A stretch of DNA of 64,000 nucleotides from Ginglymostoma cirratum. Taxonomy: Eukaryota. The notes under the pieces were generated by a model that worked only from the letters and a program-made list of their open reading frames with translations, ran no database searches and was not told the origin of the DNA. The stretch covers positions 62,001-126,000 of the forward strand of contig JAHRHZ010000221.1 in the NCBI GenBank assembly GCA_024137785.1, read 5' to 3'. Made by a program: the position numbers and the translations under genes. Below are positions 8,297-13,900 of the stretch, piece by piece; the first letter of the stretch is position 1, and each line of letters begins with the position of its first letter.

Positions 8297-8466
8297 GTGA
8301 AAAGCCTCCACGTCCAGGTGGAAATACTGTTCACACTTGTCCTCCTTGCCCTTGTTCTGAGTCTCCGCCCGTCCTGCTCTACCATACTAGCCTTAATGTG
8401 ACCCTCAGAAATGGTGAAAAGCACCAATATAAGTGTGCCAATCAAATGTGTAAAATAAAGTTGTGA
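8297..8466 (+). CDS. IgW: IgW cysteine-rich secretory tail exon 1 (short, 2-CH secreted form)
   Basis: Acceptor TCTCTTCCAATTCCAG; in frame with the CH2 donor; [62 protein letters not shown] at 8454-8459. Matches the known Cys-rich tail type of short IgW/IgX. Confidence 0.88.
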
Positions 8467-9161
8467 GTTCATTGTGAGTGGAACTGGCTGTTGAATTTCA
8501 TTACAAGTCATCTGACAGGTTCCAGTTAGTGTTTCCCAGCCAAACTACTTATCTAAGTGGTCACTTCTTGGTGACATGTACTGAGTTAGGTTGCAAGTTC
8601 CTGATCCCACTGTTTGACCCTCGCCTCTTGGCTCCGACTCAGGTTGACAAGAATTTGGAAATTATTTGTCACCCAGAGGGGACGTTACCTTGCTCCAATA
8701 AAATAGGAGCTTGAGCGCTTTCTTCAACGATTTTAGTCCTGAGGCAAATTGTTAATTCGGGACATAAGGACTGATCTGGTGTCCTGTACAACTGGTAGGT
8801 TTTGGGTGTAAACAAGGGACAGTAAAATGAGAGATGTTCCCTTCAATCCTGGATACTGACAAAAGTCAATGAAATGTTCTCAATGTTGATAAGGAGTTCA
8901 AATTGACAAAGCTTTTTTTTTTAAACTTCTCCACAAAGGTAAATGGAGTGAAATGTCCCTAACCCTGTGATTTCAACATTTACCAATGATAAGGGGAATA
9001 CTTCTGACCCTGTGTGGTTTGATTGTGGGTGAGCAAACATTAAGAATTGGTCACTAATATACAGATCAATGCTAATCTGGAAGGAAATTGCTCAAATCTT
9101 GCTGAAAGACTTGTGACAGAAATGGAACGTTTGAGGTTAATAACACGTGATCCTGCCACTT

Positions 9162-9889
9162 ATTTCATCCAGCTCCAAAACTTGTTATCTCGGATTCTCC
9201 AGCATCTGCAGTTTCTATTATCTCTGATACAATTTTAACCCCACTGCGAAGCCTCTTCTAAGGATGCCTACCCTGAAGAAGTCACCCTCCTCCCTCCGGA
9301 CAAACCTCAGGGGATCTCTCTCCCACTGCAACTCTCTCATAATCTCCTCTTCCCTATCCATCTTCTATCCGCCTCCCCCTCTCTCCCTTTTTATTTCAGA
9401 ACCCTCTTTCCCTCCCCCATTTCTGATGAAGGGTCTAGGCCCAAAATGTCAAGCTTTCCTGCTCCTATGATGCTGCTTGGCCTGCTGTGTTCATCCAGCT
9501 CCACAACTTGTTGTCTCGGATTCTCCAGCATCTGCAGTTCCTATTATCTCTGATACAATTTTAACCCCACTGTGAAGCCTCTTCTAAGGATGCCTACCCT
9601 GAAGAAGTTACCCTTCTCTCTCCAGACAAACCTCAGGGGATCTCCCTCCCACTGCAACTCTCTCATAATCTCCTCTCCACCTATCCTCTCCTCTATCCAC
9701 CTTCTATCCGCCTCCCCCTCTCTCCCTATTTATTTCAGAACCCTCTTCCCCTCCCCCATTTCTGATGAAGGGTCTAGGCCTGAACCGTCAAGCTTTCCTG
9801 CTCCGATGATGCTGCTTGGCTTGCTGTGCTCATGCAGCTCCACACCTTGTTGCCTCGGATTCACCAGCATCTGCAGTTCCTATTACTTC
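9162..9889 (+). mobile_element. Penelope-like element pseudo-LTR, tandem of about 2.2 units (period about 339 bp), with 14-bp target-site duplication
   Basis: Direct repeat units; TGATCCTGCCACTT flanks at 9148-9161 and 9890-9903; hammerhead-like CTGATGA-stem-(G)AAA motifs at 9423 and 9762; inverted copy of the same family at about 44720-45005. Confidence 0.8.
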
Positions 9890-10624
9890 TGATCCTGCCA
9901 CTTTACTGGACATCAGCTCCATCTACAGCCAGAAGAGTCGGTACCTGGTGTTGATGAATGGTTTGATGGGGACACAGATACAGTAATCATTTCTCTTTGC
10001 AAGTATTAACTCAATATGATATAGAGAGAGAATAATCAGTGTGGATCAAAGCACACACCACAGTTATGGTTTGCACAGTGAATGTTCAGAACACACAGGT
10101 TGCTGCAGGATATCTGAAGTGATAATGATTCTTTGAGAGACAAGTATAAAGAAGAACATGTGATGAATTCAATGAATGATTACCCTCAAGTCTAATAGCA
10201 TTTGAATGAAATTGGACAGCATGGGGATCATGTGCTGTAGAAATGATCTCCAACATGCAACAAGAGAGAGCTAATCGTTACTCCCTGTGATACATCCCAA
10301 GGTGGTGGAAGACCAGAGAGGAATTGCTACTGAGTCAAAAAACGCTTGGCCAATGAGATGGTTTTAAAAGGTGTCATGAAGGAGGAGAGAGAAAGAGAGA
10401 GGATAGGTCACTGAGAGATAGGGAGTGAGTTCCAGAGATTTGGACCTGGCCACCAATGCTTGGCTAAAGGGATTATAGGATTTACAAGAGATCCAAAGTG
10501 TACAGAGTTTCCAGATTATTGTAAAGCTGAAGAAGATGACAGGGAGAGGGAAGGCCAAGGCAATGGAATATTAGGATTAGAATCATAAAACAGAGGCTTC
10601 CAGTGCTGACTCCAATGAGAGAAA

Positions 10625-11030
10625 GAAAAGAAAGATTTACATTTATATATCTTTTTCACAATCACAAGACATTCTAAAGTCCTTCACAGCCAATTAGGTA
10701 TTTTAAAGTGTAGTCACCCTTGTGATGTAGGAAACATTACAACCAACCTGCACAGAAGAAACTTCCACAAAAAAATGTAAGAATGACACAGTAATCCACT
10801 TTTTGTGATGATGACTGAGTGATAAAATTGGCCAGGACATCGGCAATAGCTCTCCTGCTTTTCTTCAGAATAGTGCTCTGCCATCTCTTACTTCCACCTG
10901 AGACAGCGGTCGGGACCTGATTTTCATTTCTCAACCAAAGCAACTCCCCATGGTCTGCCCTGAACTGCTAGCTTTGAATTTTGCATTCAAGTGGATTATG
11001 ACCCCGACAATGCCAACACAGAGGCGGCAG
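10625..11030 (-). mobile_element. Deu-domain SINE (SacSINE1-like)
   Basis: AAGTGTAGTCAC..GTAGGAAAC..TTGGCCAGGACA..TCCACCTGAG motifs shared with other copies in the window. Confidence 0.6.
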
Positions 11031-11542
11031 TGTCATGGGTGAAAGAAGTGGGCTTCTCATTGATTTGGCGTACTTAACATCAGAAATCAATCCACTGTCA
11101 CACTCAATAAGAAGAATTTGTTCAATTGTTCATTTTGCTGAGTAGATTGTATCTCTGTCTCACTCCATTTCACAAATCAGAGATTGCATTTATTAATATT
11201 GTTGTCTCTGAAAACTGCTCAGTCCACAAGTCAATTGCAGGCCTTGCATGAAATCTTGATCACAGACGTAGGAAGCAGATTTGAAATGGATCTGGCTCAT
11301 TCTTAATGCAGTGACTGTACATTCTTGATCAAAACTTGCAAACGGAGAATTGCAAAACATGTTTTAAATAACCCTTGGATTTTCTAATGGTCGAGTATCT
11401 GCTGCAGATTTTCTGAATTAAAAAAGACTCTAGTTCAATGCCACTTCTGTCCCCATATTTCATTGTTTCTAATGATAGCAAAGCCTTCCCTAAACATGAG
11501 AAAATATCAATTCTTCTGAACATTTTCCTTTCCCATTCCCAG

Positions 11543-11845: not shown

Positions 11846-11935
11846 GTGGGCAAGAGATCAAAAATTACATATCTGACTTTGCCAAGCTTGAAGTAAAGAG
11901 TTTAACACCTTCTTTGTTTTGCCTGTCTGTTCCAG

Positions 11936-12253
11936 TTCTGCAAAAAAGTCCCGAGGTCAGACTGCTGCCTCCACCGGCCCAAGAGACCAAGAATCAGAGC
12001 AGAGTTACACTCGAGTGTGTAATCACTGGATTCTACCCAGACCTCATACAGGTCTCCTGGGAGAAGGATAGCAGCCTGATCTCCTCCAATACCCGTGCTG
12101 GCCTCACTGCTCTGGAGCAGACGGGGACATTCAGTGTCAGGCACTACCTGACTGTGAGCACAGAGGAGTGGAGGAAAGGTTCAGTCTTCACCTGTGTAGT
12201 GTCTCATCCACCATCCAACTTTACCAGCAGTAAGGAGGTGAAGAATGTTCAAG
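11936..12253 (+). CDS. IgW: IgW CH4 exon
   Basis: Acceptor GTTCCAG; PEVRLLPPP..LECVITGFYPDLIQVSW..FTCVVSHPPS; phase-1 donor GTAAGT at 12254. Confidence 0.93.
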
Positions 12254-12890
12254 GTAAGTCCTGGGCCTGGTGCCAAGATTGATATCATTTATCCTTGGAG
12301 AAACTCTCCTCACACCAGTTTGTAAAAGAAAAAATTCTGGGCCTGAGTGGAGCTCCATATTCTCTACTGCAGGACAATGGAGGTGAAGATATGTGTTACC
12401 AACATCATTAACTCTTTCAGTTTGAGACAGAAACAAAACCCTTCCTATTCCAGGTGGGAATGGTGGATGCTCTTGTTCTCTCTGCATGGCAAGGTTCCTG
12501 TGTAAGGCTAAATTTGACATCACTTTCTCTGAAGGCAATATGAATGTGACCAACAAATGTATGCAATCCATTGATGTGGGTTGATTGTGAATTGAATCAC
12601 GTTGATCTGGTGTAAGAATGTTGTTCCATTGCAGTGATGTTGGTCATAAGCTTTCCTGCTCCTATGATGCTGCTTGACCTGCTGTGCTTATGCAGCTCCA
12701 CACCTTGTTATCTTGGTCATCAGCGTAGTTGCTGAGAGAGAACATGAAAATCTTGCTGGGTGTTGTCAAGAACCGTAAACCTTGAGAACCTTTGATCTTT
12801 GAAATGCAAACTGTTCTACTCGAATTATAATCAGAATTAGAGTTGTCTTTATGATCATGTGCACTTGAATGAGTGACGTGAAAAATTTGC

Positions 12891-13330
12891 AAAGTCGCCG
12901 TTTATGGTGCCATCTTAGGTACAGGAGACCAAGGGACAGATACTTAAGTATTTGTTAGAGAATTGAAAGATTGAAAAAAAAGTCCAGCACAGGAATACAA
13001 AGTTTCAAAAAGAACTCGCATTATTCAAAAAGACCAGCATAAGAATAAAAAGGTTTTTTAAAAAGTTACCAACATACAGTCTTTTTCACCAAGTCCGTGC
13101 CAGCACCTAGTCTCCAGACTGCACCGGGCAAGTCTCTAGTCCACATAAGGCTTGAAAACTCCAAACCTCGCTTTCAGTCTGCAAGGGCCTTGCCTCCCTG
13201 GTGGTGGCCTCCAGTCCGGGTCTCGCCCCTGGGACTTGCCTCCCTGCACTGGCCTCTGGTTCGGGACTCTCATCCCGTGCCGGCCTACAGGCTGGGCACC
13301 CCCGAGACACAAGTCCTCGAAGGATTGTTT
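12891..13330. repeat. Interspersed repeat, copy A (direct repeat of 14918-15420)
   Basis: AAAGTCGCCGTTTATGGTGCCATCTTAGGTACAGG...GCCAGCACCTAGTCTC...; GC-rich internally repetitive end; probably the 5' end of a minus-strand LINE. Confidence 0.75.
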
Positions 13331-13739
13331 ATGGAAGGATTGTTTATAATTTGGCAATTGAAAGAATTGCCTTGATTTAGGTTAATAGGTCAGCACGACA
13401 TCGTGGGCCGAAGCGCCTGTACTGTGCTGTATTATTCTATGTTTCTATGTTCATCTGCTTCACCATCTCGAGAGAGAGGCTGACCCAGAGATGAACCAAT
13501 TGATGGCTGAACATTTCTTTTGAAAAGACATTCCTGCCGAGTCATTTTCTCTAATCTTACCATTCTGGACAAGGTGAAGCAGCTTTACATCATCAACATG
13601 ATCTGGTTCATTTATAATTCTAAACAAGCATGATGGAGCAGAGTTTCAAGGCTGTGGTATTGGTGTTCCCACTTTACCAGCGCAGGGGAGGAGAGGTAAA
13701 AATGTACAACATTAAAATTTATAAATCTTCCAATTCTAG

Positions 13740-13900
13740 GTGAAACGTTTTCATGTCTAAGTGGAAATCCTCCTGGCACTTGTCCTCCTTGCACATTTGC
13801 ACCGGAACTGCTCTACCATACTAACCTCAGTGTGACCCTCAGAAATGGTGAAAAGCACCAATATAAGTGTGACCAACAAAAGTGTCAAATAAAGTTGTGA
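13740..13900 (+). CDS. IgW: IgW cysteine-rich secretory tail exon 2 (predicted 4-CH secreted form)
   Basis: Acceptor TCTTCCAATTCTAG; in frame with the CH4 donor; [59 protein letters not shown] at 13888-13893; clear paralogue of 8297-8466. Confidence 0.85.

What the first reader, a model, noticed from the sequence alone, without database searches (positions are those of the whole stretch)
8332..13813. Shark IgW tails contain human-IgG1-hinge-like peptides
Seen: tail 1 encodes HTCPPCP (8332-8352) and tail 2 encodes [12 protein letters not shown] (13778-13813). Known: the human IgG1 hinge reads DKTHTCPPCPAPELLGG, where CPPC forms inter-heavy-chain disulphides and ELLG contacts Fc receptors. Inference: most likely convergent evolution of a CPPC dimerisation clamp, here placed C-terminal to the Ig domains and followed by a small Cys-bonded module (YKC....C). 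Homology is not claimed.
Basis: partly seen in the sequence, partly recalled or inferred. Interest (0 to 1): 0.7.

Follow-up and report, generated by a model that had tools for sequence, protein, structure and literature searches.

The report
Shark antibody tail mimics IgG hinge
Both peptides lie in duplicate copies of the long-known cysteine-rich tail of a shark antibody (IgW); only nurse and horn sharks carry the human-like CPPC word while other sharks and rays use different cysteine patterns, so the likeness is probably partly convergent and partly chance, though the tail cysteines likely do link the two heavy chains as a hinge does.

Summary
Observation confirmed at both coordinates. The window holds a nurse-shark-type IgW cluster (CH1-CH6, TM). 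The peptides lie in two copies of one secretory-tail exon, after CH2 and after CH4 (77% DNA identity), so they are one observation, not two. This Cys-rich tail and the 2C/4C/6C forms are published. In 16 tails from 9 species, CPPC occurs in 5 (nurse shark 4 of 6, horn shark 1 of 2) and in 0 of 8 sawshark, skate and ray tails; ELL in 3, HTCPPCP in 1. All 16 keep at least one linker Cys and a conserved core of about 31 residues with an invariant Cys pair, predicted as a three-stranded sheet. Single tails hit IgG1 only at E 0.055-0.62; the 14-tail profile hits nothing in the PDB. In two-domain forms the tail has the only spare constant-region cysteines beyond the light-chain one, so an inter-heavy-chain clamp is likely but untested (no dimer model obtained). 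Fc-receptor mimicry is not supported. Side lead: skate and ray cores resemble IgW CH1 strands E-F. The scan noted this same stretch before (e1-9558022), not other DNA. Already known; interest 0.25.

The parts
5948..6280 (+). IgW CH1 exon
   Evidence: Pfam C1-set E 2e-18; 99-100% identical to nurse-shark IgW AEQ27736.1 / AJD73944.1; joint 6280/7518 GT-AG in reads; borders
7518..7823 (+). IgW CH2 exon; only the two canonical Cys
8297..8466 (+). Tail 1: coding part of the secretory-tail exon of the 2-domain form (linker 8297-8367, core 8368-8466)
   Evidence: 80% identical to nurse-shark IgW short AAT02198.1; CH2-to-tail joint 7823/8297 GT-AG in one contig of run X4
8332..8352 (+). HTCPPCP peptide, in the variable Cys/Pro linker
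   Evidence: predicted disordered in the paralogous tails
8697..8702 (+). AATAAA after tail 1 (likely poly(A) signal)
   Evidence: use not tested
11543..11845 (+). IgW CH3 exon (one spare Cys)
11936..12253 (+). IgW CH4 exon
13740..13900 (+). Tail 2: duplicate secretory-tail exon of the 4-domain form (linker 13740-13801, core 13802-13900)
   Evidence: one residue different from the tail of nurse-shark cDNA protein AGY29600.1, where it follows CH4
13778..13813 (+). [12 protein letters not shown] peptide; TCPPCTFA is linker, PELL is the start of the conserved core
14185..14190 (+). AATAAA after tail 2 (likely poly(A) signal)
   Evidence: use not tested
15918..16238 (+). IgW CH5 exon (spare Cys at its start)
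17293..17675 (+). IgW CH6 exon with the canonical secretory tailpiece
19506..19651 (+). IgW transmembrane exon (approximate borders)
   Evidence: 83% to the TM part of Mustelus XP isoform P0007
8241..10153 (+). Duplicated block (intron end, tail exon, 3' flank); its partner is 13684-14899
   Evidence: blastn self-comparison, 77-78% identity

Best explanation
Shown: the exon, its splicing, its two-part build (variable linker with 1-5 Cys; conserved core of about 31 residues with an invariant Cys pair and, in 13 of 16 tails, an N-glycosylation sequon) and the patchy spread of CPPC. Predicted: linker disordered, core a three-stranded sheet. Inferred: the core pair bonds within the chain; short IgW loses the spare Cys of CH3, CH5 and the tailpiece when it is cut after CH2, and the linker would supply the inter-chain bond instead; any of several Cys patterns would do. 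TCPPC was likely present in the common ancestor of nurse and horn sharks; the H and last P of HTCPPCP and the E of PELL are nurse-shark-specific among the tails seen.
For: Identity and splicing. Duplication. Survey of 16 tails, 9 species: linker Cys 16 of 16, core pair 16 of 16, CxxC of some kind 11 of 16, CPPC 5 of 16, ELL 3 of 16, HTCPPCP 1 of 16. Horn-shark linker aligns without gaps to tail 1 and has C and S where tail 1 has H and the last P. Cys inventory of 4 two-domain forms and one long form. AlphaFold2: linker pLDDT 37-56, three strands in the core in both models. No significant IgG match. Hinges are Cys/Pro-rich, Cys bridging H chains, and arose in several lineages (PMC7916673 passages; PMC4279169 passages); CPPC is used to stabilise inter-chain bonds against CPSC (PMC5413849 passage).
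Against: No direct evidence of any disulphide partner. TCPPC shared by nurse and horn shark suggests some selection on this exact word. Only one squalomorph tail was seen, so CPPC could be older and lost. Rays with a single linker Cys (Pristis, Hemitrygon, Mobula; 4 of 16 rows) cannot form a two-bond clamp. One CPPC-less nurse-shark copy (L002) sits in a cluster with frameshifted CH1 and CH2 and may be dead; the other (AAT02198.1) is a cDNA and its joint is seen in run X5. The CH2-to-tail-1 joint was seen in one contig only and in 0 listed raw reads of X14. Several batoid and sawshark tails are gene models, not cDNAs.
Confidence: 0.62

Rival explanations
1. The linker cysteines bond within one chain (CxxC loop, or to a core Cys) or bind a metal, or they link monomers to J chain, to each other as polymers, or to other proteins; heavy chains pair mainly without them.
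For: CxxC of some kind in 11 of 16 tails, up to 5 linker Cys in horn shark; CPSC hinges are known to shift between inter- and intra-chain bonds (PMC5413849 passage), and most non-galeomorph linkers are CSxC-type; some IgW cells express J chain (PMC4279169 passage).
Against: Two-domain forms have no other spare constant-region Cys for an H-H bond; many tails have an odd total of Cys (5), leaving one free; core-to-canonical-tailpiece likeness is at noise level (HHalign 1%, 6 of 60 shuffles as good).
Confidence: 0.22
2. Full functional mimicry: the tail reproduces both the CPPC clamp and the lower-hinge receptor contact of IgG1, and binds a shark Fc-receptor-like protein through APELL.
For: Exact 7-mer is rare in linker shuffles (13 of 400,000); tail 2 also aligns with a second IgG hinge type in the PDB (K11 heavy chain, E 0.62).
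Against: APELL in 2 of 16 tails and ELL in 3 of 16, all nurse-shark tail-2 type; tail 1 has PVLL; IgG-Fc receptor binding needs hinge plus CH2 N-terminus and the Asn297 glycan (PMC7916673 passage) and no Ig domain follows here; family profile finds no native IgG.
Confidence: 0.06
3. Deep homology: the shark linker and the mammalian hinge descend from one ancestral Cys/Pro segment.
For: Both are Cys/Pro segments in IgH chains at the start of a phase-1 exon; horn shark shares TCPPC.
Against: Opposite position in the chain; CPPC missing in 7 of 9 species surveyed; E-values not significant; reviewed theories derive mammalian hinges from CH2-type exons of IgY or IgM lineages (PMC7916673 passage), not from IgW/IgD tails.
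Confidence: 0.03
4. The linker is only a loosely constrained spacer; its Cys patterns drift and all function lies in the core.
For: Linker length 9-26 residues, 73% DNA identity between tails 1 and 2 against 83-89% in flanks and core.
Against: At least one Cys is kept in 16 of 16 linkers although unpaired Cys are normally costly in secreted proteins (established knowledge).
Confidence: 0.07

Closest known systems
Cys-rich secretory tail of short IgW / skate IgX (nurse shark AAT02198.1, AGY29600.1, AGY29602.1; horn shark P83742/P83743; little skate AAA49546.1; described in PMC4279169 citing Rumfelt et al. 2004 and Zhang et al. 2013)
   Same: Same exon family: tail 2 differs by one residue from AGY29600.1; tail 1 core is identical to that of AAT02198.1; same place after CH2 or CH4.
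   Different: The tail-1 linker with HTCPPCP was not among the 13 database tails retrieved; it is a longer paralogous or allelic linker than that of AAT02198.1.
Human IgG1 core and lower hinge (PDB 5TPS, 5DJ0 chains)
   Same: TCPPC word; Cys/Pro-rich, predicted flexible; likely inter-heavy-chain disulphides.
   Different: C-terminal to all Ig domains rather than between Fab and Fc; no CH2-CH3 follows; no GG after ELL; word not fixed across IgW; no significant similarity.
Canonical IgM/IgA/long-IgW secretory tailpiece
   Same: Terminal, secretory, beta-prone stretch with an N-x-S/T sequon and Cys near the end.
   Different: Own exon, two to three times longer, 3-7 Cys; profile likeness at shuffle level.
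IgW CH1 domain, strands E-F (C1-set)
   Same: Skate and ray cores align with the CH1 E-F segment including the F-strand YxC (z 5-7.5; HHalign 10%, 0 of 60 shuffles).
   Different: Signal absent in nurse- and horn-shark cores; predicted tail fold is a three-stranded meander, not part of a sandwich; no Pfam C1-set hit.
VWC2 module of NEL/NELL2 (PDB 9OZ6 chain A)
   Same: Top Foldseek row for both models (rmsd 1.2 A over 26-27 residues): small Cys-stapled three-stranded sheet.
   Different: E 1.4-1.7, not significant; identity 12-18%; chain identity as VWC2 inferred from PMC13044245 passages.

Membership tests
IgW short-form secretory tail | Lies in an IgW cluster | tested here: met
   CH1, CH2, CH5, CH6 99-100% identical to AEQ27736.1; six C1-set exons
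IgW short-form secretory tail | Spliced after CH2 or CH4 and ends the chain | tested here: met
   joint 7823/8297 in one X4 contig; cDNA proteins P0001-P0003; the CH4-to-tail-2 joint was not among the rows shown
IgW short-form secretory tail | Cys-rich, with the conserved core shared by sharks and batoids | tested here: met
   invariant G, Q, Y, C, C, I, K in 14 of 14 aligned tails; profile retrieves 4 further IgW tails at E 3e-13 to 9e-9
IgG hinge | CPPC core word | tested here: met
   present in both window tails; family-wide only 5 of 16
IgG hinge | Position between CH1 and an Fc of two Ig domains | tested here: not met
   stop codon follows 30-38 codons later; no Ig domain downstream in the spliced product
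IgG hinge | Lower-hinge ELLGG followed by CH2 with the Asn297 glycan | tested here: not met
   ELL is followed by YHT; ELL in 3 of 16 tails
IgG hinge | Inter-heavy-chain disulphides | not testable with these tools
   needs gels or mass spectrometry; only the Cys inventory bears on it
IgG hinge | Significant sequence similarity (homology) | tested here: not met
   E 0.055 and 0.62 for single tails, 0 hits at E <= 10 for the 14-tail profile
Canonical secretory tailpiece (IgM/IgA type) | About 20 residues encoded with the last C exon, one penultimate Cys | tested here: not met
   separate exon, 53-56 residues, 5 Cys; the window's canonical tailpiece is in the CH6 exon
Degenerate C1-set (CH1-derived) exon | Similarity to CH1 strands E-F above shuffled controls | tested here: inconclusive
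   met in batoid cores and for the pooled profile, absent in nurse and horn shark cores
Sushi/CCP domain | Similarity to unbiased sushi domains | tested here: not met
   30 sushi domains of this genome: HHalign 1.5%, 9 of 60 shuffles as good
VWC / fibronectin-type-I-like module | Same fold | tested here: inconclusive
   Foldseek top row E 1.4-1.7; VIA Z <= 2.1

The most novel reading that the evidence does not exclude
Short IgW is an independent invention of the 'Fab - hinge - effector' layout: a decayed copy of the CH1 exon was recruited as the terminal exon, its front turned into a Cys/Pro hinge (reaching the IgG1 word TCPPC in galeomorph sharks) and its E-F strands refolded into a 31-residue disulphide-stapled three-stranded mini-domain that stands in for an Fc, conserved since sharks and rays split.
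Probability: 0.22. Interest if true: 0.55.

Novelty: already known. Interest (0 to 1): 0.25.

Why it matters
The function of IgW and of its short form's Cys-rich tail is an open question (PMC4279169, PMC6795676 passages). The survey turns the question from the eye-catching CPPC word to the conserved core and gives a small, testable construct: a variable Cys linker that would hold the chains together and a 31-residue module that would carry whatever effector role short IgW has. As an example of convergence it is a modest addition, since Cys/Pro hinges are known to have arisen in several lineages. If the CH1 origin held, it would show how a new antibody effector module can be built from a broken Ig domain.

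Tried and rejected
Human contamination or misassembly: rejected; the tails are in shark cDNA proteins, in duplicated shark intron and UTR context and in several runs. LINE-1 ORF1p C-terminal hairpin as source (PDB 2JRB, E 0.78): lost with the larger profile; PF17490 search of the genome found 0, but its controls were silent too, so uninformative. Sushi origin (complement factor H hit, E 2.4e-7 summed over 8 repeats; z 1.5-4.6, biased because that protein was picked by the profile): not supported on 30 unbiased domains. Canonical tailpiece origin: 0 of 40 shuffles with 9 tails but 6 of 60 with the 14-tail core, probability about 1%. CH5 N-terminus likeness (SVTL): 0 of 40 and 1 of 60 shuffles, only 8 columns, probability about 1%; left open as weak. 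The CH1 row was a script error (stale output) and was redone. Pfam: 0 families for both window tails; bL31_N E 0.032 in 3 of 9 tails treated as noise. ESM Atlas: best 0.82, leads only. Fold searches gave nothing significant. One search listed no holder on record as RNA. Run X15 had next to no IgW coverage. Two of the 7 profile hits (P0063, P0064; 0 stretches) and P0062 were dropped as repeat artefacts before the tail count. Primary papers PMC3839419 and PMC420240 are not held; Harding 1990, Rumfelt 2004 and Zhang 2013 were not read.
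Full report
1. Observation. They are the only CPPC words in the six frames of the window. Each lies in a short phase-1 exon that starts at an AG acceptor (8297, 13740), ends in a stop (8464-8466, 13898-13900) and has an AATAAA about 230-290 bases on.

2. What the locus is. Six C1-set exons and a TM exon form an IgW cluster; CH1, CH2, CH5 and CH6 are 99-100% identical to the nurse-shark chain AEQ27736.1, and a V exon lies just upstream of the window. RNA reads of run X14 show the GT-AG joints CH1-CH2, CH2-CH3, CH3-CH4, CH4-CH5 and CH5-CH6 (255 further joints were not displayed, and none of those shown reached a tail). 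Tail 1 follows CH2 and tail 2 follows CH4. They are copies of one block (8241-9134 vs 13684-14618, 77.1% over 951 columns), so the two peptides are one evolutionary observation. A search with tail 1 returned 3 proteins of 4 candidates, all nurse-shark IgW: AAT02198.1 (2C plus tail) and AGY29600.1 / AGY29602.1 (4C plus tail). Tail 2 differs from the AGY29600.1 tail by one residue. The CH2-to-tail-1 joint was seen in one contig of 1 of 4 runs laid (X4, 26 letters on the short side; RNA status guessed) and in no listed raw reads of X14, where 70 reads run from CH2 into CH3-type sequence. [quoted passage not shown] The feature is therefore published.

3. Is the IgG1 likeness more than chance? Against 177,635 PDB sequences tail 1 matched 116 at E <= 10; the 60 shown are nearly all IgG1 heavy chains or Fc-type fusions, best E 0.055. 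Tail 2 matched 8; a ZFAT zinc finger led (E 0.15), an IgG heavy chain came at E 0.62. In 400,000 shuffles of the tail-1 linker CPPC arose 9,425 times and the 7-mer 13 times. So CPPC is cheap in such a linker, the exact 7-mer is not, but it was chosen after the fact. Family profiles remove the signal: 9 tails gave 2 PDB hits (an engineered fusion at E 0.64 and a LINE-1 ORF1p domain at E 0.78), 14 tails gave 0 at E <= 10.

4. I gathered 16 tails from 9 species: 3 from this genome, 3 nurse-shark cDNA proteins, 4 batoid short forms among 32 IgW hits, 4 from a profile search of 1.84 billion representatives (7 hits; 3 repeat proteins dropped) and 2 cluster mates. Rows are not all independent (AGY29600.1 is almost tail 2; the two Mobula tails are identical). 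Anchored on the core: CPPC in 5 of 16 (nurse shark 4 of 6, horn shark 1 of 2, sawshark 0 of 1, six batoid species 0 of 7); ELL in 3 of 16 and APELL in 2, all nurse-shark tail-2 type; HTCPPCP in 1. Against my first reading, horn shark P83742 does carry TCPPC, so the word is shared by two galeomorph orders; its sister form P83743 has lost the second Cys. The horn-shark linker aligns without gaps to tail 1, with C and S where tail 1 has the H and the last P. The older pattern looks like C-S-x-C two residues before the near-invariant Pro (horn shark, sawshark, skates, L002); in tail 1 and tail 2 the codon at that place is one base from a Cys codon. Of the CPPC-less nurse-shark copies, L002 is in a frameshifted cluster and counts for little; the AAT02198.1 type is a cDNA and its joint is seen in a contig of run X5. 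What is conserved: at least one linker Cys (16 of 16), and a core of about 31 residues with invariant G, Q, Y, C, C, I, K (14 of 14 aligned) and a sequon in 13 of 16. PELL is simply the start of that core, PKF, PKL or PMF in most other species. Between tails 1 and 2 the linker is 72.6% identical in DNA, the core 88.9%, the flanks 82-89%.

5. How it most likely works. AlphaFold2 on tail 2 (10 sequences; mean pLDDT 68.8, pTM 0.36) and on the horn-shark tail (14 sequences; 59.8, 0.32) gives a low-confidence linker (37-56) and three strands in the core, the last two joined by the turn between the invariant Cys; an intrachain bond there is inferred. Fold searches found nothing significant; both models rank chain A of PDB 9OZ6 first (E 1.4 and 1.7), which by PMC13044245 (passages) should be the VWC2 module of NEL; VIA gave Z <= 2.1. 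The Cys inventory is the main functional argument: the long chain has spare Cys in CH3, at the start of CH5 and in its tailpiece, while in 4 of 4 two-domain chains listed the constant region has, beyond the canonical pairs, only the CH1 Cys (presumed light-chain link) and the tail Cys. If short IgW is a covalent H2L2, the linker must supply the bond. That is how a hinge works (PMC7916673 passages), and CPPC is the form that holds inter-chain bonds best in IgG (PMC5413849 passage). No partner of any Cys was shown here and no dimer model was obtained. The Fc-receptor parallel fails on conservation and on anatomy: that contact needs the hinge, the CH2 N-terminus and its glycan.

6. Where the core came from (lead). 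I noticed by eye that skate cores resemble strands E-F of IgW CH1 and then tested it. Against CH1, 2 of 7 cores beat all 500 shuffles (z 6.9, 5.0), two more reached 8 and 14 of 500, and the 3 nurse-shark cores showed nothing; CH2-CH6 gave nothing comparable. With a 35-sequence CH1 profile: 0 and 4 of 2,000 for the two best, 59 and 270 for the other batoids, 445-737 for nurse-shark tails. Tails found later: Hemitrygon 2 of 300, Mobula 4-6 of 300, sawshark 32 of 300, horn shark none. Pooled core profile against CH1: HHalign 10%, 0 of 60 column shuffles. The batoid rows are related and the test was post hoc, so this is suggestive only. Sushi, tailpiece and LINE-1 origins were not supported.

7. 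Novelty. The exon, its Cys richness and the splice forms are known. A remark on likeness to the IgG1 hinge was not found in the listings of five library searches; none of the shark papers listed held CPPC, and the 'hinge-like' passages of PMC4279169 concern amphibian Igs. The primary papers (Harding 1990, Rumfelt 2004, Zhang 2013) were not available and may discuss it. PMC12227049 was read in passages only and did not bear on the tail.

8. Verdict. Observation confirmed; interpretation partly supported (convergence and probable clamp yes, CPPC as the conserved device and receptor mimicry no). Already known; interest 0.25. Most novel reading not excluded: a CH1-derived hinge plus mini-domain standing in for an Fc, probability 0.22, interest 0.55.

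Noticed in passing
L008:9121-9422 and L009:670-1560 (G000:C221, about 120 kb downstream of tail 1): A second IgW cluster with frameshifted CH1 and CH2 and a third tail copy (95% to tail 1; first CPPC Cys is Ser, a Cys restored before the core, later stop). No CH3-CH6 hits at the cut-off used in the 10-20 kb after it; likely a truncated pseudogene.
   Followed up: partly
G000 whole genome: Only 3 tail copies and 1 IgW CH4 were found, whereas a review gives eight IgW loci in nurse shark and reads show many paralogous variants; the assembly likely lacks or collapses clusters (counts are lower bounds).
   Followed up: no
window 7824-7831 and 12254-12282; proteins P0045, P0027: GenBank IgW records AAT02199.1 and AAT02200.1 end by reading into the intron after CH2 or CH4, as the window's frames do; contigs of X1 and X5 span the CH2-tail-1 intron unspliced. 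Possible intron-retaining, tail-less forms (or unspliced RNA/DNA).
   Followed up: no
proteins P0002, P0005 (nurse-shark IgW): CH1 lacks the N-terminal Cys that other IgW CH1 carry (the presumed light-chain link) and has an extra Cys in strand E.
   Followed up: no
protein P0060 (Hemitrygon): A ray gene model has the tail after a CH4-type domain, so the four-domain plus tail form is not confined to nurse shark; separate duplication or gene conversion of an old pair is unresolved.
   Followed up: no
protein P0058 (Pristiophorus): Gene model joins a leader-like stretch directly to CH1-CH2-tail, like the reported V-less IgW; may be a model artefact.
   Followed up: no
window 19503-19508: Tandem AG acceptors at the TM exon; Chiloscyllium isoforms differ by one Ala at this joint.
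   Followed up: no
window 50686-51195 and 57084-57281: Open frames with scavenger-receptor cysteine-rich (SRCR)-type sequence downstream of the IgW cluster (recognised by eye).
   Followed up: no
window 9164-9893; 26772-27323, 29625-30110, 34752-35300, 41833-42240: A tandem pair of a very abundant short repeat inserted in the tail-1 copy of the duplicated block only, and several LINE reverse-transcriptase-like fragments.
   Followed up: no
L011:7575-8047 (about 2 kb upstream of the window start): Leader and V exon of this IgW cluster.
   Followed up: partly
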